Source of the DNA: Solirubrobacteraceae bacterium
GTDB lineage: Bacteria > Actinomycetota > Thermoleophilia > Solirubrobacterales > Solirubrobacteraceae
Assembly: GCA_050696955.1 (NCBI GenBank)
Contig: JBOGYT010000037.1
Coordinates: 1-44,287, forward strand
Reading direction: 5' to 3'
Length of the DNA: 44,287 nt
Below, one piece after another: positions 721 to 31,100 of the stretch; positions within the stretch are counted from its first letter, which is position 1, and every line of letters starts with the position of its first letter. The notes under the pieces were generated by a model. The model searched no databases. It had not been told where the DNA came from and worked only from the letters and a program-made list of their open reading frames with translations. The translations under genes were made by a program, and so were the position numbers.

Positions 721-884
721 CTAGTGCTTCTCCTCGTGACGTCGCGCGTGATCCGACGGGATGCCGGCGCCGCTGGGCAAGGACGCAGGGAGGGCGCAAT
801 GGCCAAGCCATTGCCCCGACTGAGGACGCCGCCCAGCGGTGATCGGCGTCCGTCGGATCACGTGGGATGTTGCGAGGCGAAGCA

Positions 885-6204: not shown

Positions 6205-6449
6205 TGCGATTCGCTCCTCTGGGTCTGCGGTGAACTGGTTGAAACTATCGGATTGGCGGGGTTCGGGGCCTGTCAGCGAGGCCCCGGGCTGTGAGCAACA
6301 AAAACGGGCCCCTGGGGCCCGCGCGCACGTCCGCTTACTGCCGGTCCGTCGCGCTATGTGCTCAAGGTCCTCATCGTGAGACGTCTGCCGCCCTCAGGAT
6401 GCGCATGCGTGAGCGTGCTTCGCCCGGGAGCGGCGGCCGATGATAGCAA
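6205..6449 (-). promoter_or_regulatory. tuf promoter plus structured leader (copy A of a duplicated leader shared with fusA)
   Basis: On the minus strand there is an extended -10 TGCTATCAT (plus 6440-6448). The conserved core at 6292-6380 matches 16136-16228 at nearly every position. The core contains helix UGAGCA/UGCUCA, a GC hairpin and the hairpin CGGGCCCC-A-GGGGCCCG followed by UUUUUGU. Confidence 0.6.
6294..6321 (-). terminator. Intrinsic-terminator-like hairpin inside the tuf leader
   Basis: Minus-strand CGGGCCCCAGGGGCCCG followed by TTTTTGTTG (plus 6305-6321 stem, 6296-6304 A-run). Confidence 0.55.
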
Positions 6450-6991
6450 GCCGGATTGTGCCGTCCGCCCCGGGTGCCGGGCCGATCAGCCGTTCCGTGC
6501 AGCTCGTCGAGCTCGGCGAGGTCGACGAGGTCGCGCGGCCGGCCGGCGGCGCGCTTCATCGCCCGCAGGTGCGCGAGCGAGCACACCGGGCGCGAGCGCG
6601 TCGGACGAGATCCGCACGAGGATCCGCGCGGCACGAGCGCGTCGAACGGCGGCACGCCGGGCAGCCGGTTGAGCACCTGCACGTCCCCGTGAACGGGTGC
6701 GCAGCGCCTTACCGAGTCCCGAAGCTCACGGACCGCTGCCTCTCCCCGCTCGGTCAGATGAACGAGCGTCGCCCGCCGGTCGGATGGGTCCGGGTGCCGC
6801 TCCAGATACCCCTTCCCCTCGAGCTCGCGGATCAGATAGGTGATCGCCTGACGGCTCATCCCGGCACGCTCAGCGAGCGTCGTGACCCGCACTCCACCCT
6901 GCCAGCAGACGCCTGCTTTCCATGCGATCAGCAGTCTCCGAGCGGACCGCTCGGAGTGTTGCCACGCGCGAGAGCGAGCGTCGTGGGACAC
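6371..6991 (-). pseudogene. Chimeric ORF: MarR-type wHTH segment fused to the C-terminal remnant of a nucleotidyltransferase-like protein
   Basis: Residues ~35-95 read VTTLAERAGMSRQAITYLIRELEGKGYLERHPDPSDRRATLVHLTERGEAAV, a MarR wHTH, but the MarR C-terminal helices are missing. Residues ~100-165 read ...LNRLPGVPPFDALV...SLAHLRAMKRAAGRPRDLVDLAELDEL, which resembles nucleotidyltransferase/AbiEii-like C-termini. The 3' end overlaps the tuf leader. Confidence 0.45.
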
Positions 6992-7055
6992 GCGCGACGA
7001 GGGAGCACTCCATCAAGGTGTCGCACCGCACCTAGCGCGGTGCTACACTCGTCGG

Positions 7056-7313
7056 GTGCCCACGACCCGTCCCCGCTACACCGTGACCGATACCGGGCAG
7101 ACGGCCGAGCTGCTGGACCTGGCCCAGCAAGCATGGCCGGAGATCACCGATCGGCGCAAGCTCCTGCTGCGTCTCACGCAAGCCGGCGGCCGGGCCCTGC
7201 AGCGCGAACTCGCTGAGCAGACCACACGACGCGAACGCCAACGGGTCGGCCTCCAGCGAGCGGCGCAGCTCGTCGATATCGACGCGCTCACCGGCGACGG
7301 CGCGTGGCGCTGA
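7056..7313 (+). CDS. vapB: Type II antitoxin, VapB-like (probably leaderless, GTG start)
   Basis: An 85-aa ORF overlaps the downstream PIN gene by 10 nt. TGCTACACT (7041-7049) ends 6 nt before the GTG at 7056. Confidence 0.7.
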   Translation: MPTTRPRYTVTDTGQTAELLDLAQQAWPEITDRRKLLLRLTQAGGRALQRELAEQTTRRERQRVGLQRAAQLVDIDALTGDGAWR

Positions 7314-7672
7314 TCCTGCTCGACAAGTCCGCCTGGGTGCGAGGCGGCGCCGACCTCGTCGACTATGGCGAGCTGTGCATGTGCGCGATCACGAGGATGG
7401 AGATCCTCTACAGCGCACGCTCGGCCGACGACTTCACGACCTTGCAGCACGACCTGGACGCCTACCGCGATCTGCGCATCGATCACACGACCATCTCGGG
7501 CGCCGAAGCCGCGCAGCGTGAGCTGGCGGCGAGCGGGCAGCATCGCGCCGCACTGCCCGATCTGATCATCGGCGCATGCGCTCAACAGCACGGGGCAGAC
7601 GTCCTGCACGTCGACCGCCACTTCCACCTTCTCGCCGAGACGTTCGGCTTCCGCAGCATCCGGCTGCGGTAG
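7304..7672 (+). CDS. vapC: PIN-domain ribonuclease toxin VapC
   Basis: 122 aa with the acidic PIN residues in the expected order: LLDKS, TRMEILY, LPDLIIGACA, HVDRHF. Confidence 0.85.
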   Translation: MALILLDKSAWVRGGADLVDYGELCMCAITRMEILYSARSADDFTTLQHDLDAYRDLRIDHTTISGAEAAQRELAASGQHRAALPDLIIGACAQQHGADVLHVDRHFHLLAETFGFRSIRLR

Positions 7673-8239
7673 CGCAAGGCGGGAGGCTGCTCACTCGCGC
7701 GAATCGGAGCAGTTCGGAGGCGAGACTGTACCCATATCCCGCTTCGTCACCGTCCGGATAACGAGTCTCCCGCTGTCGCCTTGCGCGAGAACCAGCAGCG
7801 AAACCGGGCATCTGCGCGCAGCCAGCGCCGACCGGAGCTCGGCTATCGGGCGAGCGGATCGCCTTCATGTCGGCACCGGCGCGCGCCGAACTGCTTCATC
7901 GCGATGCCGCTGTTCTTAGCCCACCAGTAACGTCCATTGGCGGCGCCGTGAACGACGATTGTCCTCGAAGCCGGCGCGGTCGACGAGTGGGCAGTCCCGA
8001 TGGTGTACGACCGGGGTCGCGCGAGCCGAGTCCGTGATGACGATGCAACCGTGCGCCGCGCCTCGCCAGCAATCGAACGCGCGGACATCCAGAAGTTCAA
8101 CCAGCTCGGGAGCGGCGTTGATGCGAAAGCGGGAGTGGGGAGCCGTGCTGAGAGTCGCCGGTGCGGCGTCTGGGCTGCGAGCGATTGACGAACGCGTCGG
8201 GCGGCGGGAGTATCGGTCTAGGCAACAGAGGAGGCGACG

Positions 8240-8845
8240 ATGTCTTGGAGCGTGCGAGGTCGGTATTTCGAGAACTGCACCTGCGATGTCCCTTGTCCAT
8301 GCACCGCGTCGCTGTCGCTGGGAGCCGACTACGACCGCTGTCAGGTCGTGCTTGTCTTCCATGTTGACGCGGGCGACGTCGACGGCGTCGACGTGAGCGG
8401 GCTCACGGTGGCCGCGGTGGGTGACACGCCCAAGGTCATGACCGACGGCGACTGGCGCCTGGGCGTGCTGATCGACGCGGCCGCGACAGACGAGCAGGCA
8501 GACAAGCTCGGCGGCGTGTTCAGCGGGGCGCTGGGAGGCCCGATGGCGGCCCTCGCGCCGCTGATCGGCGAGAACCTCGGCGTCGAGCGCGTGGCTATGG
8601 AGTTCTCTTCCGAGGGCGGGCGGCACAGCGTGAGCCTGGGCGACAAGGGCAACGTCGAGGTCGAGGACGTGGTCCCCTTCGGCATCGAGACCGGCGAGCC
8701 GGCGCGCATCGTCGGAATCTTCCACCCGGTCGGAAGCGAGCTGACGATCAGCAAGGCCGGCGACTCGCAGATCAGCGCCTTCGGTCTGGAGCCCGTCCTG
8801 GCCGGCCAGTCCGGCTTCTCGACCACGTTCGCCTGGTCGGCCTGA
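8240..8845 (+). CDS. DUF1326 family protein (Cys-rich N-terminus)
   Basis: The N-terminus MSWSVRGRYFENCTCDVPCPCTAS is the hallmark of DUF1326. An SD GAGGAGG lies upstream. Confidence 0.8.
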   Translation: MSWSVRGRYFENCTCDVPCPCTASLSLGADYDRCQVVLVFHVDAGDVDGVDVSGLTVAAVGDTPKVMTDGDWRLGVLIDAAATDEQADKLGGVFSGALGGPMAALAPLIGENLGVERVAMEFSSEGGRHSVSLGDKGNVEVEDVVPFGIETGEPARIVGIFHPVGSELTISKAGDSQISAFGLEPVLAGQSGFSTTFAWSA

Positions 8846-8850
8846 CGGCG

Positions 8851-9702
8851 ATGACCGCGCTGCGGTCGCTGCCCGCCCGGCTCGAGAGCGGTCCGTACGC
8901 CGGCTGGCGGCTGGCGACCATCGGCGTGCTGCTGGTCCTCGCCGCCGCGGCGTGGGCGATCACGGGCGTGCGCATGGCCGGGATGGACGAGGGCCCCGGC
9001 ACCGATCTCGGGACACTCGGCTTCTACCTCACGAGCTGGGTCGTGATGATGGCGGCGATGATGTTCCCGTCAGTGGCCCCGCTCGTCGCCGTCTACGCCG
9101 GGCTGCAGCGCGGCCGCCGCGCGCGGGCGATGCCCGCGCCCGCCGCGGCGACGAGCTTCCTCGTCGCCGGCTATCTCCTGACATGGACGATCGCTGGTCT
9201 CGCCGCCTTCGGCCTGTTCGCGGCGGGCCGCACGCTCGTCGGTGATCAGCTGGCGTGGGACGCCGGCGGGCGCTGGGTGGCCGCAGCCGTGCTGCTTGCC
9301 GCCGCGGCCTACGAGTTCACGCCGCTGAAGCACGCCTGCCTGACGCGCTGCCGCGGCCCGCTGTCGTTCATCCTCGAGGCATGGCGCGACGGCCGGCTCG
9401 GCGCGCTGCGCATGGGGATCAAGCACGGAGCGTGGTGCGTCGGCTGCTGCTGGGCGCTGATGGCGGCACTATTCGCGCTCGGCGTGATGAGCATCGCGTG
9501 GATGGCGGTCGTGGCGCTGCTGATCGCGATCGAGAAGCTCTTGCCGTCGCGGATCGCCGCGACGCGCGCCGTCACCGCCGTGCTGGTCCTACTTGCCGTC
9601 GGCGTCGCGGCCGCGCCCGACCACATGCCCGCGTTCAGCGTGCCGCCGAGCGATGCCTCGGGTGCCGGGATGGGCCCCGGGATGTCGCCGATCGGACGCT
9701 AG
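8851..9702 (+). CDS. DUF2182 family predicted metal-binding integral membrane protein
   Basis: Multi-TM protein with VVMMAAMMFPS, KHACLTRCRGPLSF and HGAWCVGCCWALM motifs. Lies 5 nt after the DUF1326 gene. Confidence 0.8.
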   Translation: MTALRSLPARLESGPYAGWRLATIGVLLVLAAAAWAITGVRMAGMDEGPGTDLGTLGFYLTSWVVMMAAMMFPSVAPLVAVYAGLQRGRRARAMPAPAAATSFLVAGYLLTWTIAGLAAFGLFAAGRTLVGDQLAWDAGGRWVAAAVLLAAAAYEFTPLKHACLTRCRGPLSFILEAWRDGRLGALRMGIKHGAWCVGCCWALMAALFALGVMSIAWMAVVALLIAIEKLLPSRIAATRAVTAVLVLLAVGVAAAPDHMPAFSVPPSDASGAGMGPGMSPIGR

Positions 9703-9736
9703 CGCTCTGCGCGAGGCGCGAGAGCGACGCCCGATC

Positions 9737-10602
9737 CACGCGAGGCTGTCGCGCAAAGAGCGGGGTGTCGGAGTGCCGCTGCGGTTTCGGGCTACGCGGG
9801 AGGGCGAACCTCGGCGCTCGCTGGACTTGGTGTGCTCAGGCGGGTGCGGTGAAGTGTCGGTGGAGCTTGAGCAGATTGTGTGTGCTGGCCATGAGGCGCC
9901 ATTCGGTCCGTGCGGCTGATCTGCCGCGCCGGGCGAAGCGCGTGAATCCGCGGTTGTGCTTGGTGTTGCCGAAGATCGGTTCGATGAGCTGCGCGCGTTG
10001 CTTGTAGAGCGCCCTTCCGTGGTCGGTCGTCGGTCGCGATCGTTTCCTCGACGATCTCCTGCGCGATCTGCTGGTAGTCCAGCGTGCGGTCGGTTGGCGA
10101 TCGCCGCGACCTTCGTGCCGTCGATCGCGATCACGCCGACCGATGCAAGGCCAGCGTCCGCGCACAGCCCCAGCACCTCGCCGAAGAGATCCGCAAGCGC
10201 TGTCTCGTGACGCTCGATGAACCGCGCGACCGTCGCGTGATCGGGCTGCTGCTGGGCGGCGATCACACGGCACGCGACATCCTCGACACACGCCCGCTGC
10301 ATCCGCCGCGAGGAGCGCACGCCCCGCGACCAGCAATACAGCAACAGCGCCACCATCATCGACGGCTCGTATGCCGCGCGACCATGGCCATCATCACGGT
10401 AGGCGGCGTAGAACGCCGACAGATCGATCACCGCGACCGCGTCGAGAACGAACCACGCCAGATGGTCCTCGGGCAGCCACTCACGCACATCGGGCGGCAA
10501 CAGAAACGACTGCTCACGATCACACGCCAAGAAGTTGTGAGCCATACCCGAATCGTCCTAAACCGATCGGATAGCAGGCCGTTTACGCGACAGCCTCACG
10601 CG
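9737..10602 (-). mobile_element. Internally deleted IS1182/IS5-like insertion sequence bounded by imperfect 22-bp terminal inverted repeats
   Basis: CACGCGAGGCTGTCGCGCAAAG (9737-9758) matches the reverse complement of GTTTACGCGACAGCCTCACGCG (10581-10602) at 18/22 positions. These repeats enclose the transposase fragments. Confidence 0.7.
9836..10545 (-). pseudogene. IS1182-family transposase, N-terminal ~155 aa and C-terminal ~60 aa in different frames, central DDE region deleted
   Basis: The N-terminal fragment reads MAHNFLACDREQSFLLPPDVREWLPEDHLAWFV...IAIDGTKVAA (ORF 9589..10545). The C-terminal fragment reads RALYKQRAQLIEPIFGNTKHNRGFTRFARRG...NLLKLHRH (ORF 9836..10336). Confidence 0.75.
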
Positions 10603-10752
10603 AAAGGAGAAGCCCAGAGCTTCGGGACGAGTGTCCCGAGAACGCGTCAGCGACTCCTGCGTCGGCGAGGCTCCCCGTGTCTCATGTCGGCCTCATCGGG
10701 GCCCCGTAGCGTCGCCATTCGTCAAGACGGCTCGAACGACATGGAGGTATCA

Positions 10753-11526
10753 GTGAAGCTTGTCGCCCCCGCATCCCTCGCACTGCTCGCTACGGTGTCG
10801 CTGTTCGTCGGTTCTCAGCTGGTTGAAGGCGCCCCGGCTCGGTCCACTGCCCACTCGCGCGCGACCGTGCCGCTCAAGGACGCCAAGCTCAACATCGAGT
10901 ACAACGCGACGGACCACGACACCGGCTTTCAGGGGTTCGTCGACAGCGAGGGCTGGCGGCGGCTCGACATGCGCGGACCCGCCGGCAAAGTGCTGACGTT
11001 GAAGGGGCGGGGCGCGCTTGGCAAGCTGGGGCTGACCGAGCTTTTCTTTGAGACCGTCGAGCCGCAGACCGCGGACACGCCGATCAAAAGGATGCTCGCG
11101 AAGCTGCCCGCCGGGAACTACCGGATCGCCGGCCCGGCCCAGGAGAACGGCAAGCGCGCAGGCCGGACTGCGGGGACGGCGTGGCTCACGCATGACATCC
11201 CCGCGGGCCCGCGGCTCGTCTCGCCCGCGGAGGGCGCGACGGTGCCGACTCGTGGCGTCGTCGCCGACTGGGAGCCTGTGTCCAAGACGATCACCGGCAA
11301 GCCCGTAAGGATCATCGCGTACCAGCTCATCATCGAGAAGGACGTAAAGCCCCACCGTCACATGATCGGAAAGTTCGGCCTGAGCATGCACCTGCCACCC
11401 TCGGTCACCAGCATCGACGTGCCGGACGGGTTCCTCGAGCCCCGCAGCGCCTACAACTGGGAGGTCCTGGCGATCGAGCGCAGCGGCAACCAGACCCTCT
11501 CGTCCGGCTCGTTCAACACCGGATAG
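10753..11526 (+). CDS. Secreted hypothetical protein (signal peptide, no recognisable family)
   Basis: The GTG at 10753 follows GGAGG by 4 nt. The N-terminus VKLVAPASLALLATVSLFVGSQLVEGAPA is signal-like. Strong GC3 bias. The upstream part of track ORF 10084..11526 is antisense to the transposase. Confidence 0.6.
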   Translation: MKLVAPASLALLATVSLFVGSQLVEGAPARSTAHSRATVPLKDAKLNIEYNATDHDTGFQGFVDSEGWRRLDMRGPAGKVLTLKGRGALGKLGLTELFFETVEPQTADTPIKRMLAKLPAGNYRIAGPAQENGKRAGRTAGTAWLTHDIPAGPRLVSPAEGATVPTRGVVADWEPVSKTITGKPVRIIAYQLIIEKDVKPHRHMIGKFGLSMHLPPSVTSIDVPDGFLEPRSAYNWEVLAIERSGNQTLSSGSFNTG

Positions 11527-11708
11527 TGCCCTCGAGCACTGGGGGCGCTTCCGGGACGGCCCAGTCGCCGGTCGAACGTACCGCACAGCTACGCAATGCG
11601 CGAGGAGGAGCACTCGAGCGGTAGCGCTCGCACGCGGAGGGAGAAGCGGCTGGTGCAATGGCTCGCCGAGGACGCGTCCAGAGGTAGGGCGCGTGCAGCG
11701 TGCGAGCC

Positions 11709-11993
11709 CTATTGCAACGTCAGGTCCGCGTCTTCAAAGGCGCGTGAGCGCATTTCCGTCACGGCGTCGAGCAAACCGCTCGCTCGCAACGCTTCGCCGT
11801 GCTCAGGCTGTGACTGATAGTCGTCGCGCGCCTCAGAGGACTCCCAGAACGTGGCCACGACAACGCCGCTCTCCGTTGGCGCGACCATTCGGGCCAACAC
11901 GACCGGCGTCGGACGGCGAGCTTCAAGGTCCGCTGCCGCGGCGAGCAGCGCGTCGGTCGGACCGTCCATCTCCAGAATGACCAGCACACCCAT
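11709..11993 (-). CDS. Small hypothetical protein, possibly ABM/Dabb-like fold
   Basis: The ATG at 11993 is preceded by GAGGAGG. The 94-aa product starts MGVLVILEMDGPTDALLAAAADLEARRP... The rest of track ORF 11709..12488 looks non-coding. Confidence 0.5.
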   Translation of the reverse strand: MGVLVILEMDGPTDALLAAAADLEARRPTPVVLARMVAPTESGVVVATFWESSEARDDYQSQPEHGEALRASGLLDAVTEMRSRAFEDADLTLQ

Positions 11994-12296
11994 GTGAACC
12001 TCCTCGAGGGTCGACCAGTTGCGGCTGACCGTACCCGCGATGAGACAGCACGAGCAAACATCGGGCACGATCCCCCTGACACACGGATCTCGACGGCGGG
12101 CGGCGACGTCAAAGCTCGATCCGTGTCGCCGCGACGGCATCGCTGATTCGACACTCCGCGAAGTTGCTGCAGCGCCGTTCGAGCGCCCGTCGCGGACAGC
12201 AGCGCTACTCCCCCGGCTCGAAAATCCGTACGCGGCGCCGCGTGTGTAGCCGAAGCGTGGTCGCACGCTGTCGGCCGCGCGCCGCACGGTCGATGT

Positions 12297-12500
12297 GTGG
12301 CAAGGAAGTTTCGAGAGGTTCGGCGAGCCCTGTCGGACGCCTGCTGGACGAAGGTGCGGCAAGCTGGCTCGCACGAGACGTGGCGCAGCCAGGACGGCGC
12401 GAGATCGATCACGGTGGCCGGCTAGGAGTCCGATACCGTTCCCGTCGGGACCCTTGGCGCCATCCGCCGGGCGACAGGACTGGAGCATCTGCGAGGAAGG
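12297..12500 (+). pseudogene. hicA: hicA-like mRNA interferase toxin interrupted by an in-frame TAG (12423-12425)
   Basis: The frame starting at GTG 12297 reads VARKFREVRRALSDACWTKVRQAGSHETWRSQDGARSITVAG*ESDTVPVGTLGAIRRATGLEHL. It carries the GSH motif and the GTL..I...GL C-terminal motif of the HicA family. It is not listed as one ORF in the track because of the stop. Confidence 0.6.
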
Positions 12501-12706
12501 ATTATCTCGTCATCTACGAACGCGCTGAAGACGGTAGCTGGGGCGGGCACAGCCCCGACGTGGAGGGAGTGTTCGCGCTGGCGAAGACGCGCGAGGAGAC
12601 CGAGGTCCGTATGGCCGAGGCTCTGACAGCACACTTGGCGTACCTGCGCGATCAGGGGCAGCCCACGCCCGAGCCGCGCACCGATGCCGGTCGCGTCGCG
12701 GCCTGA
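12500..12706 (+). pseudogene. hicB: HicB-family antitoxin domain lacking a canonical start codon
   Basis: DYLVIYERAEDGSWGGHSPDVEGVFALAKTREETEVRMAEALTAHLAYLRDQGQPTPEP matches the HicB/UPF0150 N-domain. The position where Met is expected holds AAG, and there is no ATG/GTG/TTG nearby in frame. Confidence 0.5.
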
Positions 12707-13205
12707 TCTGACGTCGCCTTCCACGGAGCGAGTACGGCTCCGCCGACGCCGTACCCGCTGAACCTACACCGACGATCGCCGGGACTCGCTGTCCCTCCGC
12801 GCGAGAAGCGAGCGCGGTGACGATCGGCGCAAAACGCACCCGACCTCTGCTGGCGACGCGGCCTGCGGCGCTCGCTGGCACCTGGGCGTGTCCCGCATAG
12901 CCCGCCTCTACCGCGACATGTCACCGAACGAGGCTTGCGCGGGGCATTGGGTGGCACGGGGTCGTGGAGATCACGGTCGGCGCCCAGCTTCGTCACGTTG
13001 TGCGGTTCCGCTCGGCGCATGTCGGGGTTCGCCCTACGCGATGATCTGGGAGCTGAATGCGTGTTCCATGTCGAGAAGCGCTGACCGGCTCCGCTCATCA
13101 GATGAAGGGCCGCGAGCGGCGCGGCCCACAACACCAGGAGACCGCGATGCCGAGGTATCTGCTGCACGACGAGTACACGGCGCAGGAGCTGACCGGAGGC
13201 CGTTC

Positions 13206-13643
13206 ATGACCGTCCAGCGCCTGGAGCACATCGGCATCGTCGTCGACGACCTCGCGGCGGCGACCGCGTTCTTCGCCGCACTCGGGCTCGAATTGGAGGG
13301 CGAGGCGTCCGTCGAGGGCGGCTCGGTGGACCGCATCAACGGGCTCGAGGGCGTGCGCGCGGATATCGTGATCCTGCGGACCCCGGATGGCAACGGCAAG
13401 GTCGAGCTGGCCAAGTACCGCTCGCCCTCGTACGAAGGCGACGACGGGCCGGCGCCGGCCAACGCCCCGGGCATCCGCCACATCCTCTTCGTCGTCGACG
13501 ACATCGAGGCATCCCTGGCCGGCCTGCGAGCGCATGGCGGCGAGCTGGTCGGCGAGCTGGTGAACTACGAGAACAGCTACTGGCTCTGCTACGTGCGCGG
13601 CCCGGCCGGGATCATCGTCGAGCTGGCGGAGAAGATCAGCTGA
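13206..13643 (+). CDS. VOC family protein (glyoxalase/bleomycin-resistance/dioxygenase fold)
   Basis: The ATG at 13206 follows GGAGG. The product reads MTVQRLEHIGIVVDDLAAATAFFAALGLELEGE...IRHILFVVDDIEASLAGLRAHG. Confidence 0.85.
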   Translation: MTVQRLEHIGIVVDDLAAATAFFAALGLELEGEASVEGGSVDRINGLEGVRADIVILRTPDGNGKVELAKYRSPSYEGDDGPAPANAPGIRHILFVVDDIEASLAGLRAHGGELVGELVNYENSYWLCYVRGPAGIIVELAEKIS

Positions 13644-13990
13644 TGGGTGTCCCATTGTTCGGTCAGGAGCACGTCGCCCGATACCGCGAAACCGACGGCG
13701 AGAAGGCCACGACTGGCAGGGCGCGACGGTATTGCTGCTCACCACCACCGGGCGCAACTCGGGTGCCAAGCGGACCACGCCGCTGATCTACCAACGGCAC
13801 GAGACGACTACCTAGTGGTGGCCTGAAACGGCGGCGGCAATCCACCCGGCTGGTTCCTCTACCTTCAAGACGATCCGATCGTGGCCGTGCAGGTCAAGGC
13901 CGATCACCACAGCGACGTCGGCGCCGCTGCACGATCCGCTGAGGAGGGAGTTCGGGGCGGTCAGCCAGCCGGGATGCGTACGACGAGTAC
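13643..13990 (+). pseudogene. Deazaflavin (F420)-dependent nitroreductase family gene (DUF385/Ddn-like) with at least 2 frameshifts and an in-frame TGA
   Basis: Family-typical segments lie in three different frames: MGVPLFGQEHVARYRETDG, then EGHDWQGATVLLLTTTGRNSGAKRTTPLIYQRH, then DDYLVVA*NGGGNPPGWFLYLQDDPIVAVQVKADH (TGA at 13824-13826). Confidence 0.7.
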
Positions 13991-14011
13991 ACGTGATGCC
14001 CGTCGACGGAG

Positions 14012-16111
<2,100 letters not shown>

Positions 16112-16297
16112 GGCTTCTCTTGATCTCTATTCGGTCCCGAGCAACAAAAAACGGGCCCCTCGGGCCCGCGCGTACGTCCGGTGTCTTGCCGGTCCGACGC
16201 GCTATGTGCTCGAGGACTCCATCGTCAGGCGCAACTCCTGCTCCGGAGCGGGCGCTACCAAGCGCATCGGCCAGCGAAGCGGTGTTCGACTATAGCA
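16112..16297 (-). promoter_or_regulatory. fusA promoter plus structured leader (copy B of the leader shared with tuf)
   Basis: On the minus strand there is an extended -10 TGCTATAGT (plus 16289-16297). The conserved core at 16136-16228 contains helix CUCGAGCA/UGCUCGGG, a GC hairpin and CGGGCCC-GAG-GGGCCCG followed by UUUUUUGU. No minus-strand gene lies upstream, so the promoter must be here. Confidence 0.6.
16141..16168 (-). terminator. Intrinsic-terminator-like hairpin inside the fusA leader
   Basis: Minus-strand CGGGCCCGAGGGGCCCG followed by TTTTTTGTTG (plus 16152-16168 stem, 16145-16151 A-run). Confidence 0.55.
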
Positions 16298-16328
16298 AAG
16301 GGCCGGGCCTCTTCCGGCCCGATTTCCC

Positions 16329-16778
16329 ATGACCCACAAGGTGTTTGCGGGGGTCGCCGCACTGGGCGCAGCGCTGCTCGTGGCGGCGGAATTCAGCCCG
16401 GTCTACGAGGTCGTCGTCGGCTCGCTGGCGATCCCGCGCCGCGAGGTCGACGGCGCCGACAACCACTCGTACGCGCTGTTGATCGTCGCCGTCCTCGCGC
16501 TGCCGATGGCGCTCGGCGCGCTACGCGGCGCACGACCCGCAGCGCTCGCGCTCGTCGCGCTTGGAGGGACGGCGCTGTTCGTCGCGCTCGCGCTCGACCT
16601 GCCCGACGCCCGCGCGACCGGCCGGCTGCCTGAATCGGTCGCTTATGAGGACGCGCGGGCGCGAGCCTCCACGGGACTGTACGTCGAGCTTGCGGGCGGC
16701 GGGCTGCTCATCATCGCCGGCGCCGGCCTGCTGGCGCGCCCCTCTTCCACGCGCGCGAACCCGCAGCGCACGCCCTGA
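16329..16778 (+). CDS. Small integral membrane protein (about 4 TM), function unknown
   Basis: 149 aa with hydrophobic segments (AGVAALGAALLVAAEF, ALLIVAVLALPMALGAL, ALALVALGGTALFVALAL, GLLIIAGAGLL). Divergent from fusA. Confidence 0.6.
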   Translation: MTHKVFAGVAALGAALLVAAEFSPVYEVVVGSLAIPRREVDGADNHSYALLIVAVLALPMALGALRGARPAALALVALGGTALFVALALDLPDARATGRLPESVAYEDARARASTGLYVELAGGGLLIIAGAGLLARPSSTRANPQRTP

Positions 16779-26770: not shown

Positions 26771-28176
26771 GCGCGCCGCGCGTCGGGATCATCGGTGGCG
26801 GAGTCCTCGGGACGGTGCTCGCGCTGCGCCTGCGCGAGGCCGGAGCCGAGGTGACGGTGCTCGAGCGCGCCGCGACCGTCGGCGGCCTCGCCGGGACGAT
26901 GGACTTCGGCGGCCACACCGTCGATCGCTTCTACCACGTGATCTTGCCGTCCGACGAGCGGATGGTGCAGCTCGCCCACGAAGTCGGGCTCGGCGATCAA
27001 CTGCGCTTCAATCCCGTCGGCGCCGGCTTCCTGGCCGGCGGTGAGCTGCACGACTTCAACGGCATCGGCGACTTCCTGCGCTTCGCACCGCTGCGCCCGT
27101 GGCAGCGCGCCCGGCTGGCCTGGTTCGTCGCCTACTGCCAGCTGCGCTCGGGCTACGACGGCCTCGAGGACGTGCCGCTCGAGCGCTGGCTGCGACGCCA
27201 CTGCGGCCGCGGCGTCGTCGAGCAAATGTGGAAGCCGCTGCTGAACACGCGCTTTGACTCCGACTGGAACGAGCTACCGGCGACGTATCTGTGGGCCCGC
27301 ACGCGCCGCATGTCGGGCGCGCGGACCGGCCGCGGACGCGGCGAGGAGATGGGCTGCATCATCGGCGGCCACCAGCGGCTGTTCGACGCGCTCGCGGCGA
27401 AGGCGCGCAAGCACGGCGTCAAGTTCGAGCTCGGCGCCGCCGTCGAGGGTCTCGCGCTCGCCGAAGACGGGCGCGTCGAGGGCGTGCGGGTGGCCGGCGA
27501 GACGGCTCGGTTCGACCTCGTCATCCCGACGCTCCAGCCGCCGGCCCTGCGCCACCTTCTGCCGCCGAAGCTCGATCACCTGCTCGCCGCCTATCCGCAG
27601 CGGTTCATGGGCGTCGTCTGCCTCGTCTTGAAGGTGCGCCGCTCGCTGACGCCCTACTACGCGGTAAACATCTGCGACCCGACACCGATCACGACCGTCG
27701 TCGAGACGTCGCACGTGCTTGGCACGGAGCACACCGACGGGCTGCGTCTCATCTACGTGCCGAAGTACTGCGACCCATCGGCTCCCGAGCAGGACGAGGA
27801 TCCGCAGTCGCTCTACGACCGTTTCACGGCGGCGCTCGCACGCGCCGTCCCATCCTTCTCGCATGACGACGTCGTCGAATGGACGGTGCAGCGCAGCCGT
27901 CTGGTCGAGCCAGTCCACGCGGTCGGCACCAAGCCGCGCGTGGCACCGGTGTGGCCGGGGGTCCCCGGGCTGGCGCTCGCGTCGGCGTCGCAGGTCTATC
28001 CACGTCTGCTCAACGGTGAGTCGGTCGTGGAGCTCGCCGAGACGGTCGCCGCTCAAGCGGTGCAGCGTCTCGGTCTGTCTTCGGGGGCACCGCCGCGTGC
28101 GGTGCCGGAGGTAGGAATCCACAGCGACGAGAGTCGCGTCCCGGAGGTCGTCCCATGTGCCGCCGCACCACCCTGA
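26767..28176 (+). CDS. NAD(P)/FAD-dependent oxidoreductase (amine-oxidase/PPO-like fold)
   Basis: MSAPRVGIIGGGVLGTVLALRLREAGAEVTVLERAATVGGLAG dinucleotide-binding motif. The ATG at 26767 overlaps the wecB stop. Confidence 0.8.
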   Translation: MSAPRVGIIGGGVLGTVLALRLREAGAEVTVLERAATVGGLAGTMDFGGHTVDRFYHVILPSDERMVQLAHEVGLGDQLRFNPVGAGFLAGGELHDFNGIGDFLRFAPLRPWQRARLAWFVAYCQLRSGYDGLEDVPLERWLRRHCGRGVVEQMWKPLLNTRFDSDWNELPATYLWARTRRMSGARTGRGRGEEMGCIIGGHQRLFDALAAKARKHGVKFELGAAVEGLALAEDGRVEGVRVAGETARFDLVIPTLQPPALRHLLPPKLDHLLAAYPQRFMGVVCLVLKVRRSLTPYYAVNICDPTPITTVVETSHVLGTEHTDGLRLIYVPKYCDPSAPEQDEDPQSLYDRFTAALARAVPSFSHDDVVEWTVQRSRLVEPVHAVGTKPRVAPVWPGVPGLALASASQVYPRLLNGESVVELAETVAAQAVQRLGLSSGAPPRAVPEVGIHSDESRVPEVVPCAAAPP

Positions 28177-31100
28177 TACACGTTCCGCGACGGATCAAGC
28201 TGACGCTCCTGGGTCTGGTGCTCGTCCTCGTGCCGGCGCTTCCCGTGCTGCCCGCGAGCGGTGCTCCCGCGGCGCCCGTGGGCGTCACGGCGATCGCGCT
28301 GAACGGCCAGGCCAACATCTCCTGGAAGGCGGTGTCCGGCGCCACGAGCTACCGCATCTTCCGCTCGTCCACCATCAGCGGGACCGCCACGCAGGTCGGC
28401 ACGTCCTCCACGACGACGTTCACGCACACCGGGCTCACGAACGGGACGGTCGGCTTCTACACCGTGCGGGCGGTCGACGTGCTCGGCCAGGGGCCGGCAT
28501 CCGCTGCCGCGCAGGTCACGCCCCTCGCCCAGACCTGCTCGACGGGCAACCAGGTGGTGGTCGAGAACTGCTTCGCCGGCACGACCGCGTGGAAGAGCAC
28601 CGGCGGCCCGCAGGTCCAGTCGGGCGGCATCGAGGGCTTTGCGGCGAAGACGTCGATCAACCGCGGCGAGTCCGTCGACCTCAAGGTCAACACCCAGGAC
28701 GCGAAGCCCTACCGGGTGGAGATCTATCGCACCGGCTGGTACGACGGCGACCAGGGCCGGCTGATCTCGGTCATCCCGGGGCTGGTCGGCGACCTGCAGA
28801 GCGCGTGCAACGTGCCGAGCGGCAACACGGGCCTGACCGACTGCTCGAACTGGACGGCCACCTCGACGCTGACCACGTCGGCCAGCTGGCCCAGCGGCGT
28901 CTACATCCTGCGCCTCGTGCGCACCGACAACGGCGCTGACAGCCACATCCTGCTGACGGTCCGCGACGACGCGCGCACGCCCGCGGTGAGCTACATCGTC
29001 CCCGTCGCGCACTATGCCGCCTACAACAACTACGGCGGCAGGTCGCTGTACGACTTCAACTCGAACGGCTCGACGACCGTGGCCGGCACCGCGCGCGCCG
29101 TCAAGGTCTCCCTCGACCGTCCCCAGAACCTCCTGTCGCGCGACTGGTACACGGACATCGACATCCAGAACGTGGGCTGGCTCGAGCGCGAGGGCTACGA
29201 CCTCAGCTACGCGACGAGCGTCGACCTCCAGGCCGGCATCCCGAACCTCAACAGCCGCGAGGCGATCGTGTCCGGCAGCCACGACGAGTACTGGTCCTCG
29301 CAGATGCGCACCGCGGTGACGAACGCCCGCAACGCCGGCACCGGCGTGCTGTTCCTCGGCGCCAACGGCGTGTACTGGAAGATCCGCTACGAGTCGAGCC
29401 CGGTCTCGTCGGACACGAACCGCGTGGTCGTCTGTTACAAGTCGACGCAGAGCGGCGGTCCCGATCCGCTCGGCCCCACCGGCACGTGGCGCGATCCGGC
29501 CGGCGCGAACCAGCCCGAGAACGCGCTCATGGGCGTGCAGTACATCGGCGACAACGACTTCGGCTACTCCCCGCTGCAGGTGTCGGCCGCCCAGGGCAAG
29601 CACCGCCTGTGGCGCTACACGCCGCTGGGGTCGCTGGCCGCCGGGACCACCGACTCCATCGGCCAGAACCTCGTCGGGTGGGAGTGGGATGCGCGCGCCG
29701 CCAACGGCGCCGAGCCCGCGGGCATCTCCACGGTGGCGAGCACGCCCGTGACCGGCAGCATCCTGCAGGATGCCGGACGCGTCTACGCCCCCGGGTCCGC
29801 GGTCCAGCACAGCACGTACTACAAGTACGGGGCGTCCGGCGGGGTCGTGTTCGCCTCCGGTACGAACCACTGGAGCCGCGGGCTGGGGATGAACGAGGAC
29901 AACGTCGGCGAGCCCAACACGATCATCATGCAGGCGACGGCCAACGCGCTGCAGGACATGGGCGCGCGGCCGACCACGCCGGACAACGTGACGCTCGACG
30001 GCACGGCGGCGCCGACGGTCAGCACGCGGGCACCGGTGCCCGGCGCCACGAACGTGGCGACCACGACCGCCGTCACCGCGACCTTCGATAGTCCCGTCGA
30101 TCCCTCCACGGTGACGAACGCGAGCTTCACGCTCACGCGTCCAGGCGGCACGACGGTGGCGGCGACCGTCAGCTACAGCGATACGACGAAGACCGCCACG
30201 CTGACGCCCACCGGCCAGCTCGACGGGACGACGACGTATACCGCGACGCTCACCACCGCCATCAAGAACTGGAACGGCCAGGCCCTGGCGGCAGCCTCCA
30301 CGTGGAACTTCACGACGCGCAGCGGCAGCCCGCCGACCGTCACCGGTCGCACACCGGCGCCGGGCGCGACCGCGATCTCCTTCAACGAGAAGCCGACCGT
30401 CACGTTCGACCGCGACATGGCCGCATCGACGATCACCAACACGAGCTTCACGCTGACGCCGAGCGGCGGGACCGCCGTCGCCGCGACGGTGGCCTACGAC
30501 GGCGCGACGCGGACGGCGACGCTGACGCCGAGCGCGCTGCTCAACGGCTCGACGACCTACACCGCCCGCGTGACCACCGCGGCGCAGGCGACCGACGGCG
30601 CCCCGCTCGCGAGCGACGTCACGTGGTCGTTCACGACGAAGGCGTCGCTCGGACCGTTCACGGTCACCGATCGCGCGCCCGCCCCGCTGTCGAGCGGCAT
30701 CTCGCCGTCGACCACGGTCCGCGCCGTGTTCTCGCGCAGCGCCGATCCCGCGACGCTCACGCCGTCGACGTTCACGCTGCAGAACTCGGGCGGCGCCTCG
30801 GTGAGCGCCACCGTCGCCTACAACGACGCGACGAAGACCGCGACGCTGACGCCGAGCGCCCCGCTCACGCTCATGACGTCCTACACGGCGACGCTGACGA
30901 CCGGCGTCACGGGCGTCGAGGACGGCCAGCCGCTGAGCTCGCCCGTGACGTGGACGTTCACGACGGCGACGAGCCCGCCGCCGCCACCGGCGGTGACGTC
31001 AACCAGCCCGCTGGCAAGCGCGACCGGCGTCGCGCTCAACAGCCAGATCCGGGCGACGTTCGATCGCTCGCTCGATCCCGCGACGGTCACGAGCGAGACC

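What the first reader, a model, noticed from the sequence alone, without database searches (positions are those of the whole stretch)
16136..16297. Copy B of the shared leader: fusA is monocistronic behind its own promoter and attenuator-like element
In almost all bacteria fusA is preceded by rpsL-rpsG. Here the gene upstream of fusA is a divergent membrane-protein gene (16329, plus strand). The promoter must therefore lie in the 217-nt gap, exactly where the conserved TGCTATAGT and leader core sit. This independently supports the view that the repeated sequence is a promoter and leader rather than random duplicated DNA. Both copies also contain a conserved 6-codon mini-ORF frame. Copy B reads ATG GAG TCC TCG AGC ACA TAG and copy A reads ATG AGG ACC TTG AGC ACA TAG. 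The 3' half of each forms the 5' strand of P1.
Basis: partly seen in the sequence, partly recalled or inferred. Interest (0 to 1): 0.7.

Follow-up and report, generated by a model that had tools for sequence, protein, structure and literature searches.

The report
Leader-peptide attenuator in front of fusA
The 217 bases in front of the elongation factor G gene hold a promoter, a six-codon mini-gene and a transcription stop signal, a set found in front of this gene in every related soil actinobacterium examined, and it probably lets the cell tune production of its translation factors according to how well ribosomes are working.

Summary
Window 16112-16328 (minus strand) holds an extended -10 box (TGCTATAGT), a structured 5' segment, a 6-codon uORF (ATG GAG TCC TCG AGC ACA TAG, 16222-16202), a hairpin, and a GGGCCC-GAG-GGGCCC + T6 intrinsic terminator 35 nt before the fusA start.

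The window comes from a Solirubrobacterales genome. All 13 relatives found through EF-G alone carry the same parts in front of fusA. A leader-pattern scan of metagenomes gave 87 leader-type hits. 78 sit directly upstream of EF-G, and none was seen in front of any other gene.

The uORF shows coding constraints:
- It is always 6 sense codons long.
- The start is ATG or GTG.
- The stop is TAG, TAA or TGA, and never the permitted TGG.
- Codons 3 and 5 encode Thr/Ser through 9 different codons.
- Codon 6 is almost always a very rare A-ending codon.

Copy B is the ancestral element. Copy A (before tuf) is a recent duplicate found only in the window and its closest relative. No Rfam family matches either copy.

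Best reading: a ribosome-dependent transcription attenuator for fusA (ancestrally fusA-tuf-S10). Its polarity is unresolved, because folding tests give only weak and lineage-dependent antiterminator signals. It is a new variant of a known kind.

The parts
16289..16297 (-). Extended -10 promoter element TGCTATAGT (TG-n-TATAGT). The predicted transcription start is near 16283.
   Evidence: It is unique in the window with 0 expected by chance. A TGnTAnnnT box lies upstream of the uORF in 83 of 84 unique related leaders. The transcription start itself is inferred, not mapped.
16223..16283 (-). Structured 5' segment (P0) between the predicted start of transcription and the uORF. Its sequence varies between lineages but a fold is kept.
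   Evidence: Across relatives, the folding energy of this segment against dinucleotide shuffles gives a mean z of -1.6. The z is negative in 27 of 29 sequence groups, p = 4e-8.
16202..16222 (-). Six-codon uORF ATG GAG TCC TCG AGC ACA TAG (MESSST).
   Evidence: The sequence is. The length, start and stop are conserved in all EF-G-anchored relatives. Codon statistics over 84 unique leaders are.
16168..16202 (-). Hairpin P2. It starts at the G of the stop codon and ends directly against the terminator stem.
   Evidence: It is found by single-sequence folding (z = -2.7) and by RNAalifold. One compensatory pair, G-C to A-U, occurs in 3 of 8 sequences. It is specific to the window's sub-lineage and a related group.
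16146..16169 (-). Intrinsic terminator. The stem is GGGCCC/GGGCCC (16167-16162 and 16158-16153), extendable by 2 pairs. The loop is GAG and a T6 run follows (16151-16146).
   Evidence: The consensus scan finds it. The motif GGCCC-N3-6-GGGCC-NN-TTT occurs 13 times in 1.45 Mb of fetched loci plus the window, and every occurrence is in a leader.
16136..16146 (-). 3' strand of P1 (UGUUGCUCGGG). It pairs with uORF codons 3-6 (16205-16214) and can form only in read-through RNA.
   Evidence: Supported. A P1-like helix across the order has z = -0.63, negative in 22 of 30 groups, p = 7e-4.
14012..16111 (-). fusA (EF-G, 699 aa), the gene controlled by the leader.
   Evidence: Pfam finds GTP_EFTU, EFG_III, EFG_IV and EFG_C.
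16329..16778 (+). Divergent small membrane-protein gene that bounds the gap.
   Evidence: Its homologue sits in the same divergent position in relatives.
6300..6448 (-). Copy A, the recent duplicate of the leader in front of tuf. It has a -10 box TGCTATCAT (6448-6440), the uORF ATG AGG ACC TTG AGC ACA TAG (6374-6354), and a terminator GGGCCC-CAG-GGGCCC + T5 (6320-6300).
   Evidence: Among 28 loci that hold both the fusA end and the tuf start, it is present only in the window and L081.

Best explanation
The gap holds the fusA promoter and a roughly 170-nt leader that works as a ribosome-dependent transcription attenuator.

**Proposed sequence of events.**
- RNA polymerase starts about 7 nt after the extended -10 box.
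- It transcribes a structured 5' segment, then a 6-codon uORF, then a spacer of about 35 nt, then a strong intrinsic terminator.
- Whether polymerase stops at the terminator or reads into fusA depends on whether, and where, a ribosome sits on the uORF when the terminator is transcribed. Ancestrally the downstream unit was fusA-tuf-S10 operon.

**Ribosome parking.** The uORF ends in a very rare A-ending codon followed by UAG or UAA. I read this as a device that holds the ribosome at the 3' end of the uORF.

**Favoured polarity (inference, about 60:40).** A ribosome on the uORF keeps the uORF and spacer from pairing with the terminator region, so the terminator forms. A leader that is not translated in time folds differently and lets polymerase through. 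Low translational capacity would then raise synthesis of EF-G, and ancestrally of EF-Tu and ribosomal proteins.

**Shown versus inferred.** Shown: the conserved parts, their exclusive link to fusA, and the coding-type constraints on the uORF. Inferred: that the uORF is translated, that the hairpin terminates, and the polarity.
For: **Conservation anchored on EF-G alone.** All 13 independent relatives have the -10 box, a 6-codon uORF, a spacer and a GGCCC/GGGCC terminator with a T run in front of fusA. These are L001-5, L007, L008, L081, L082 and L204-207. Non-Solirubrobacterales loci have rpsG directly upstream instead.

**Link to fusA.** Of 87 leader-type hits in the metagenome scan, 78 are followed by the EF-G N-terminus. 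None was seen in front of any other gene.

**uORF constraints over 84 unique leaders.**
- Start: ATG 83, GTG 1.
- Stop: TAG 62, TAA 19, TGA 3. TGG never appears, although the search pattern allowed it, and 11 of 33 unrelated hits do have TGG.
- Codon 3 is Thr/Ser in 76 of 84, using ACN, AGC and TCN codons.
- Codon 5 is Thr/Ser in 67 of 84.
- Codon 6 ends in A in 74 of 84 (ACA, AGA, ATA, CGA, AAA).

**Background codon and stop use.** A-ending codons are 2.4% of codons in 11 window genes, and AGA and ATA occur 0 times in 4622 codons. TGA is 54% of ordinary stops in this lineage but 3.6% of uORF stops.

**Geometry and terminator.** The spacer from stop to terminator is tightly sized at 30-44 nt, with a mode of 33-37. 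The terminator motif occurs nowhere else in 1.45 Mb of loci.

**Folding.**
- In local context the terminator is out-competed more often than with shuffled upstream sequence: P(term) 0.58 against 0.79, in 19 of 30 groups, p = 0.006.
- With a ribosome footprint at the stop codon, P(term) rises to 0.89-0.93.

**Modularity.** The whole module was duplicated in front of tuf and kept its ORF and terminator.

**Shine-Dalgarno.** The lack of a Shine-Dalgarno sequence is not an objection. fusA itself mostly lacks one here, and about a third of the uORFs have one.
Against: - No experimental data exist. Translation of the uORF and termination at the hairpin are both inferred.
- The antiterminator signal is weak. 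It is not significant when the full-length leader is folded. It is also not significant in a test on nascent RNA ending at the terminator loop (0.70 against 0.67, p = 0.11).
- Complementarity tests against shuffled or mismatched partners are near null.
- The predicted effect of ribosome position differs between lineages. Groups 9, 15 and 22 respond to a ribosome at the stop codon. The window's group responds to a ribosome at the start.
- For the window's own full-length leader, the terminator is predicted to form in every state.
- Blocking upstream sequence raises P(term) almost by construction.
- The A before the stop could be a stop-context preference rather than a slow codon. Ordinary genes also show some enrichment, 14%.
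- The metagenome sample was selected with ATGGA...TRR, so conservation of codon 2 in that sample is biased.
Confidence: 0.55

Rival explanations
1. The parts are the same but the polarity is the classical one. A ribosome held at the rare codon 6, at the stop codon, or awaiting EF-G/RRF-dependent recycling masks the strand next to the stop. This frees an antiterminator, so slow decoding, translocation or recycling increases read-through. That would be direct negative feedback on EF-Tu and EF-G.
For: A rare last sense codon plus a stop readable by RF1 looks like a sensor placed where stalling should matter, as in trp-type and erm-type attenuators. P2 begins exactly at the stop codon in the window's group. 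In groups 14, 18 and 26 the free leader already favours the terminator. That is what this model expects.
Against: With a ribosome footprint at the stop codon or at codon 6, the predicted terminator probability almost never falls. Only 3 of 84 leaders are below 0.5. No strand freed by the ribosome shows above-chance complementarity to the terminator 5' strand.
Confidence: 0.22
2. A factor-dependent attenuator or ribosomal-protein leader. A protein binds the leader and drives termination, and the uORF is incidental. Candidates are L4 (as in the E. coli S10 leader), S7 (as proposed for rpsL leaders), or NusA (as proposed for the rimP leader).
For: Ancestrally the leader heads fusA-tuf-rpsJ-rplC-rplD. 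The terminator stem sequence GGGCCC/GGGCCC is kept far more strictly than a generic terminator needs. This recalls the conserved GGGC...GCCC stem of the rimP leader. Predicted attenuators upstream of rpsL, and of fusA in streptococci, have been reported (PMC2965389).
Against: Apart from the uORF and the terminator, no sequence block is conserved that could serve as a binding site. The spacer and 5' hairpin differ between lineages. No Rfam family matches, even at E-value 10. The pattern of synonymous and Ser/Thr codon exchange and the TAG/TAA/TGA exchange is not explained by a protein site.
Confidence: 0.1
3. A structured 5' UTR that acts after transcription. The three-way junction P1-P2-P3 would act on mRNA stability or fusA translation. 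The 'terminator' would be mainly a structural hairpin or a constitutive partial stop.
For: P1, P2 and P3 are predicted together. The single-sequence z is -2.55. RNAalifold recovers all three, with two compensatory pairs. A closing helix around the terminator hairpin is modestly enriched across the order. P1 can form only in read-through RNA.
Against: P1 and P2 are not positionally conserved outside close relatives. A GC stem followed directly by 5-8 U, kept in a 70% GC genome, is the signature of an intrinsic terminator. The junction model does not explain the coding constraints on the uORF.
Confidence: 0.1
4. An independent small transcript, either an sRNA or a hexapeptide gene with its own promoter and terminator, that merely lies next to fusA.
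For: Promoter, ORF and terminator form a complete unit of about 140 nt.
Against: It is always immediately upstream of, and co-oriented with, fusA, or tuf for the duplicate. The distance to the start codon is 21-137 nt, and no separate fusA promoter is evident in the 35 nt left in the window.
Confidence: 0.03

Closest known systems
Leader-peptide (ribosome-mediated) transcription attenuators of amino-acid operons (trp, his, thr, ilv, pheA; ilvBNC of Corynebacterium, PMC11857589)
   Same: A short translated ORF in the leader is followed by an intrinsic terminator. Ribosome position on the ORF is thought to choose between RNA folds. A special codon is placed inside the ORF.
   Different: The genes controlled are translation factors, not biosynthetic enzymes. 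The ORF has only 6 codons, with one rare A-ending codon at its end rather than a run of cognate codons. No clear four-segment 1:2 / 2:3 / 3:4 arrangement could be demonstrated.
uORF attenuators that sense translation stress or ribosome-targeting antibiotics (mycobacterial whiB7 uORF, PMC10274678; E. coli topAI uORF, PMC12121999; B. subtilis vmlR, PMC9226507)
   Same: A short uORF plus a terminator or Rho site upstream of a gene whose product helps cope with impaired translation. The signal is general ribosome slowing rather than a metabolite.
   Different: Those systems control regulators or resistance factors and have longer uORFs. This one controls core factors (EF-G, and ancestrally EF-Tu and the S10 operon). 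There is no sequence similarity, and the polarity here is unknown.
'rpsL-leader' predicted attenuators, including one upstream of fusA in streptococci (Naville and Gautheret 2010, PMC2965389), and the paired rpsL/fusA motifs of Pelagibacter cited there
   Same: A premature terminator in the 5' region of a str-operon gene, predicted from sequence. In Pelagibacter, two similar elements lie before two genes of the operon.
   Different: Those are proposed to be ribosomal-protein (S7) leaders, and no uORF is described for them. They differ in taxon and in sequence. Rfam models gave no hit here.
E. coli S10 operon leader (L4-mediated, NusA-dependent attenuation). This comparison is from my own knowledge.
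   Same: Regulated termination at a leader hairpin with a U run, upstream of an operon that contains rpsJ-rplC-rplD.
   Different: That system depends on a protein and has no leader peptide. It is restricted to gamma-proteobacteria and has no sequence relation to this leader.
rimP leader (PMC2965389)
   Same: A leader terminator whose stem sequence (GGGC...GCCC) is unusually conserved, upstream of translation and transcription factor genes.
   Different: It lies before a different operon (rimP-nusA-infB) and has no uORF. There was no Rfam hit to it here.

Membership tests
Ribosome-mediated (leader-peptide) transcription attenuator | A short ORF in the leader whose start, stop and frame are under selection | tested here: met
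   There are 6 sense codons in all 13 EF-G-anchored loci and all 84 unique leaders. The start is ATG or GTG. The stop is TAG, TAA or TGA, and never TGG. Codons 3 and 5 exchange Thr/Ser through 9 codons.
Ribosome-mediated (leader-peptide) transcription attenuator | An intrinsic terminator between the leader ORF and the structural gene | tested here: met
   A GC stem plus T run is found by the consensus scan in both copies. It is conserved in all relatives. The motif is absent elsewhere in 1.45 Mb. Termination activity itself was not tested.
Ribosome-mediated (leader-peptide) transcription attenuator | A mutually exclusive antiterminator fold whose formation depends on ribosome position | tested here: inconclusive
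   The local-context fold test is positive (0.58 against 0.79, p = 0.006). The full-length test, the nascent-RNA test and the complementarity tests are not significant. Behaviour differs between lineages.
Ribosome-mediated (leader-peptide) transcription attenuator | Regulatory codon(s) at which ribosome speed reports the signal | tested here: inconclusive
   Codon 6 is a rare A-ending codon in 88% of leaders, against 2.4% genome-wide. A stop-context preference for A is a possible alternative.
Ribosome-mediated (leader-peptide) transcription attenuator | The leader ORF is actually translated, and read-through responds to translation | not testable with these tools
   This needs ribosome profiling or toeprinting, Term-seq, and reporter mutants.
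Ribosomal-protein leader (S10/L4, rpsL/S7 type) | A conserved RNA site that mimics the protein's rRNA binding site | tested here: not met
   There is no Rfam hit at gathering score or at E-value up to 10. No block is conserved outside the uORF and terminator. Binding itself is not testable here.
Riboswitch | A conserved ligand-binding core with covarying helices upstream of the expression platform | tested here: not met
   The only invariant sequences are the uORF ends and the terminator. The 5' hairpin and spacer differ in sequence and length between lineages. There is no Rfam match.

The most novel reading that the evidence does not exclude
The leader is a sensor of global translational capacity wired directly to the genes for the elongation machinery. 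A hexapeptide uORF parks the ribosome on a near-unused A-ending codon and a stop readable by RF1. The timing of that ribosome relative to RNA polymerase sets how much EF-G is made, and ancestrally how much EF-Tu and S10-operon protein. This would be a transcriptional homeostat for elongation factors that replaces the lost rpsL-rpsG linkage. It proved portable enough to be copied in front of tuf.
Probability: 0.3. Interest if true: 0.75.

Novelty: new variant of a known kind. Interest (0 to 1): 0.6.

Why it matters
Feedback control of ribosomal proteins is well studied, but control of EF-G and EF-Tu synthesis is poorly understood outside E. coli. This lineage lost the usual rpsL-rpsG-fusA linkage. 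It carries, in front of fusA, a compact module whose most constrained part is a 6-codon ORF ending in a codon the genome otherwise almost never uses.

If the module is a translation-sensing attenuator, it would show one way a cell measures its own elongation or ribosome capacity and corrects it at the level of transcription. It would also be a small portable part of about 140 nt for translation-responsive gene control in high-GC bacteria. Finally, it shows that a within-genome repeat of a leader can flag a family-wide regulatory element.

Tried and rejected
- **Rfam.** Searches at gathering score over the whole window, and at E-value up to 10 over both copies, gave only chance-level hits to miRNA and snoRNA models.
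- **Sarcin-ricin-loop mimic.** I considered that the GGACCGG in P2 might mimic the sarcin-ricin loop. I dropped this because the segment is not conserved even in copy B of close relatives.
- **A universal antiterminator.**
  - Duplex tests of the post-stop segment or the uORF against the terminator, the 5' leader or the pre-uORF region, using shuffled or cross-lineage controls, were near null. Even the clearly structured 5' hairpin scored only z = -0.5 in the cross-lineage test, so these tests have little power at 70% GC.
  - Full-length folding gave no significant signal.
  - Nascent-transcript folding gave no significant signal.
- **The spacer as a conserved hairpin.** It is one only in the window's group and one neighbouring group. 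Family-wide it is, if anything, less structured than shuffles (mean z = +0.25).
- **P1 as a family-wide feature at fixed position.** It is not. The 5' partner is mostly in the spacer in other lineages.
- **The same element before other genes.** None was found in the loci. The 33 metagenome hits not linked to fusA are unrelated 3' ends of genes followed by terminators.
- **Literature searches.** The first two searches timed out. Later searches found no description of a fusA leader peptide.
- **Scans used up or not spent.** Named cultured Solirubrobacterales (Conexibacter, Solirubrobacter, Patulibacter) and sister orders were therefore not examined. I ran no further search on this.
Full report
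**What is in the window**

The window is 70% GC. fusA runs from 16111 down to 14012 on the minus strand and encodes a canonical 699-aa EF-G. The next gene upstream is divergent (16329-16778, plus strand, weak membrane-protein hit). This leaves a gap of 217 nt.

Read on the minus strand, the gap contains these parts in order:
- TGCTATAGT at 16297-16289, an extended -10 box. It is unique in the window, with none expected by chance.
- About 60 nt that fold into a stem-loop.
- The ORF ATG GAG TCC TCG AGC ACA TAG at 16222-16202.
- A hairpin that starts at the G of the stop codon (16202-16168).
- GGGCCC-GAG-GGGCCC followed by T6 (16167-16146). The consensus scan flags this as terminator-like.
- GTTGCTCGGG.
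- The fusA start, 35 nt after the T run.

A second copy lies before tuf (uORF 6374-6354, terminator 6320-6300). The one exception is that the -10 box of copy A reads TGCTATCAT.

**Where the window comes from, and what relatives look like**

A scan of one genome per species with EF-G places the window in Solirubrobacterales (class Thermoleophilia). The eight related loci have EF-G 70-80% identical to the window's. Seven of them include the fusA upstream region. All seven show the same layout in front of fusA: TGCTAT-type box, a GC-rich 5' hairpin, a 6-codon ORF, a spacer, and a GGCCC/GGGCC hairpin with a T run. Loci from other phyla and other actinobacterial orders have rpsG directly upstream instead.

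A protein search returned 120 EF-G clusters at 86-97% identity. I fetched six of them with their contigs, and all six have the module.

The family synteny is rpsL-rpsG, then a PG_binding_1 gene, then a divergent small membrane-protein gene, then the leader, then fusA-tuf-rpsJ-rplC-rplD and so on. The str operon was therefore split in this lineage, and fusA-tuf-S10 acquired its own promoter and leader. rpsL sits 33 nt behind another gene and has no such element.

**Which copy is the original**

Among 28 loci that hold both the fusA end and the tuf start, only two carry a second module before tuf. They are the window and its closest relative, L081 (EF-G 97% identical). Everywhere else the fusA-tuf spacer is 70-260 nt and has no module.

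In L081 the order is fusA-[copy A]-tuf. In the window, another 7.8 kb lies between the fusA stop and the copy A promoter. It carries a MarR-like ORF, a PIN gene, DUF1326, PpoB2 and a glyoxalase gene.

Copy B, the subject of this finding, is thus the ancestral element. Copy A is a recent duplicate. fusA is monocistronic only in this genome.

**Distribution**

I scanned metagenome contigs with ATGGA-N13-TRR-N25-55-GGCCC-N3-6-GGGCC-NN-TTT.
- 87 are leader-type hits. In 78 of these the EF-G N-terminus follows within about 140 nt. The other 9 mostly run off the contig end.
- 33 are unrelated, typically the end of a gene followed by a terminator.

The module was never seen in front of another gene. 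The terminator motif alone occurs 13 times in 1.45 Mb of fetched sequence, and every occurrence is in a leader.

**The uORF behaves like a coding sequence**

The figures below come from 84 unique leaders.
- Start: ATG 83, GTG 1.
- Length: always 6 sense codons. This holds in the 13 loci found through EF-G alone, where nothing about the uORF was imposed by the search.
- Stop: TAG 62, TAA 19, TGA 3.
  - The search pattern also allowed TGG. It never appears in a leader, yet it appears in 11 of the 33 unrelated hits.
  - The three TGA cases change three of the four bases of the usual A-TAG and still keep the stop in frame.
- Codon 3: Thr or Ser in 76 of 84, spread over ACC, ACG, ACT, ACA, AGC, TCC, TCG, TCA and TCT.
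- Codon 5: Thr or Ser in 67 of 84.
- In both codons 3 and 5, information content falls from the first to the third position.

The consensus peptide is M-E-(T/S)-x-(T/S)-x.

Two features are unusual:
- Codon 6 ends in A in 74 of 84 leaders (ACA 33, AGA 17, ATA 7, CGA 5, AAA 4). In 11 window genes only 2.4% of codons end in A, and AGA and ATA do not occur once in 4622 codons.
- TGA accounts for 54% of ordinary stops in this lineage but 3.6% of uORF stops.

I read both as devices that slow the ribosome at the 3' end of the uORF. The first would act through a scarce tRNA and the second through a stop codon that RF1 can read. A simpler alternative is a sequence-context preference: ordinary genes also end in an A-ending codon more often than expected, at 14%.

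About a third of the uORFs have a recognisable Shine-Dalgarno sequence, such as GGAGG 9-10 nt upstream. The rest do not. fusA itself mostly lacks one in this lineage, so its absence says little.

**Other conserved properties**
- A TGnTAnnnT box lies upstream in 83 of 84 leaders (TGCTATATT 26, TGCTATAGT 24, TGCTACCAT 16). It places the uORF about 46-86 nt from the predicted start of transcription.
- The 5' segment is more stably folded than dinucleotide shuffles. The mean z is -1.6, negative in 27 of 29 sequence groups, p = 4e-8. Its sequence is not conserved.
- The spacer from the stop codon to the terminator is 30-44 nt, mostly 33-37.

**RNA structure in the window's sub-lineage**

I aligned eight sequences: copies A and B of the window and of L081, plus L082, L204, L205 and L206.
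- P1 pairs uORF codons 4-6 with the segment just after the T run.
- P2 is the hairpin after the stop codon.
- P3 is the terminator hairpin.

Ninety percent of cells pair. Two pairs show compensatory change: C-G to U-A in P1, which is the copy B to copy A difference, and G-C to A-U in P2.

P1 needs sequence downstream of the T run, so it can exist only in read-through RNA. It cannot decide termination.

Across the order, P2 is not general. The spacer alone is no more structured than shuffles (z = +0.25). A closing helix around the terminator is only modestly enriched (z = -0.63, negative in 22 of 30 groups, p = 7e-4), and its 5' strand is usually in the spacer rather than in the uORF.

**Mechanism: what the folding tests do and do not show**

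I first folded RNA from 6 nt before the uORF to the T run.
- The terminator hairpin is out-competed (probability below 0.5) in 39% of real leaders, against 13% of leaders with dinucleotide-shuffled upstream sequence.
- Averaged per sequence group, the terminator probability is 0.58 against 0.79, lower in 19 of 30 groups, p = 0.006. The spacer contributes most in general, and the uORF contributes most in the window's group.
- A ribosome footprint at the stop codon restores the terminator to 0.89-0.93.

This favours the reading that a ribosome on the uORF lets the terminator form, and that an untranslated leader reads through.

The support is weak, for these reasons:
- With the full-length leader, the difference from shuffles disappears (0.66 against 0.73, p = 0.45).
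- A kinetic-type test asks whether the terminator 5' strand is already paired when only its loop has been made. It shows no family-wide signal (0.70 against 0.67, p = 0.11).
- In that same test the sensitive ribosome position differs between lineages. It is the stop codon in groups 9, 15 and 22, and the start in the window's group.
- For the window's own full-length leader, the terminator is predicted in every state.
- Blocking upstream sequence can hardly do anything but raise the terminator probability.

The opposite, classical polarity is that a stalled ribosome causes read-through. It fits the placement of the rare codon and would give direct feedback on EF-Tu and EF-G. It finds no support in the folds, since only 3 of 84 leaders lose the terminator with a ribosome at the stop.

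I therefore commit to a ribosome-dependent attenuator at about 0.55-0.65. I favour the polarity 'translated means terminated' at roughly 60:40. Under either polarity the physiological logic is the same: poor translation leads to more EF-G.

**Comparison with what is known**

No Rfam family matches. Searches of the literature for a fusA leader peptide or attenuator found none.

The closest published observation is the 'rpsL-leader' of Naville and Gautheret. It is a heterogeneous set of predicted premature terminators upstream of rpsL, and upstream of fusA in streptococci. The authors suggested these depend on S7, and they describe no uORF. The same paper notes an unusually conserved GGGC...GCCC stem in the rimP leader, which recalls the invariant GGGCCC stem seen here (PMC2965389).

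In mechanism, the nearest systems are:
- leader-peptide attenuators of amino-acid operons;
- uORF sensors of translation stress, namely whiB7 (PMC10274678), topAI (PMC12121999) and vmlR (PMC9226507).

The present element meets the sequence-level criteria for that class, a constrained uORF plus an intrinsic terminator. The alternative-fold criterion remains inconclusive. It differs from the known examples in three ways: the genes it controls, the extreme shortness of the ORF, and the single rare terminal codon. I rate it a new variant of a known kind.

**Limits**
- Everything rests on sequence.
- The large sample was selected with a pattern that fixes ATGGA and a TRR triplet. Statements about the start codon, codon 2 and ORF length therefore rest on the 13 EF-G-anchored loci.
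- Sequences are related. I corrected for this only by averaging within 30 similarity groups.
- Cultured Solirubrobacterales and sister orders were not examined, so the phylogenetic limits of the element are unknown.

Noticed in passing
window 6452-14011: About 7.8 kb of unrelated genes (MarR-like ORF, PIN, DUF1326, PpoB2 copper chaperone, glyoxalase) lie between the fusA stop and the copy A promoter. The closest relative L081 has fusA-[copy A]-tuf contiguous, so this is a recent insertion or rearrangement.
   Followed up: partly
window 6371-6991 (minus strand): The MarR-like ORF is 206 aa, with its domain at residues 31-74. It reads on through the copy A -10 box and 5' hairpin and stops inside the uORF region. 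It looks like a gene cut or fused at the insertion boundary. Transcription from it could enter copy A.
   Followed up: no
window about 6205-6255 (minus strand); L082 12140-12196; L204-L207 fusA-tuf gaps: A block of about 40 nt directly upstream of tuf (YCGATAGTTTCANCCAGTTCA...AGAGGAGCGAA) is conserved in relatives with and without copy A. It may be a tuf-proximal promoter (GATAGT) or a 5' UTR element. If so, tuf would not depend only on copy A.
   Followed up: no
window 16300-16320 (minus strand); also L008 and L204-L207 just upstream of the -10 box: A GC-rich hairpin followed by TTT lies immediately upstream of TGCTATAGT, where a -35 box would be. The scan flags it as terminator-like. It sits between the two divergent genes, 8 nt from the ATG of the membrane-protein gene.
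   Followed up: no
fusA start regions of 84 related leaders (window 16112-16135): fusA itself has little or no Shine-Dalgarno complementarity in this lineage. The mean duplex energy is -2.3 kcal/mol, and only 21% reach -4 or lower. tuf, by contrast, has a clear GGAG.
   Followed up: partly
156 ORFs in window, L001-4, L007, L081, L082: Ordinary genes end in an A-ending sense codon in 14% of cases, although A-ending codons are only 2.4% overall. This suggests a general preference for A before the stop codon in this lineage.
   Followed up: partly
window 17150-44287: In relatives, rpsL-rpsG and a PG_binding_1 gene lie upstream of fusA. The window instead has a polysaccharide biosynthesis cluster there: UDP-glucose dehydrogenase, sugar transferase, epimerases, Wzy-like ligase, flippases, glycosyltransferases and asparagine synthase. 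The UDP-glucose dehydrogenase is inverted relative to L081, and rpsL/rpsG are absent from the window.
   Followed up: partly
window 28155-32936 (plus strand): A 1593-aa protein has six Big_5 Ig-like repeats, a DMFA2_C domain, two DUF4082 domains and a CopC-like segment. Its repeats appear at the DNA level as copies 60-75% identical, spaced 321-330 nt apart.
   Followed up: no
window 722-778 and 831-887: An inverted repeat with 57-nt arms, 75% complementary and 52 nt apart, lies inside the ribosomal-protein gene region at the low end of the window.
   Followed up: no
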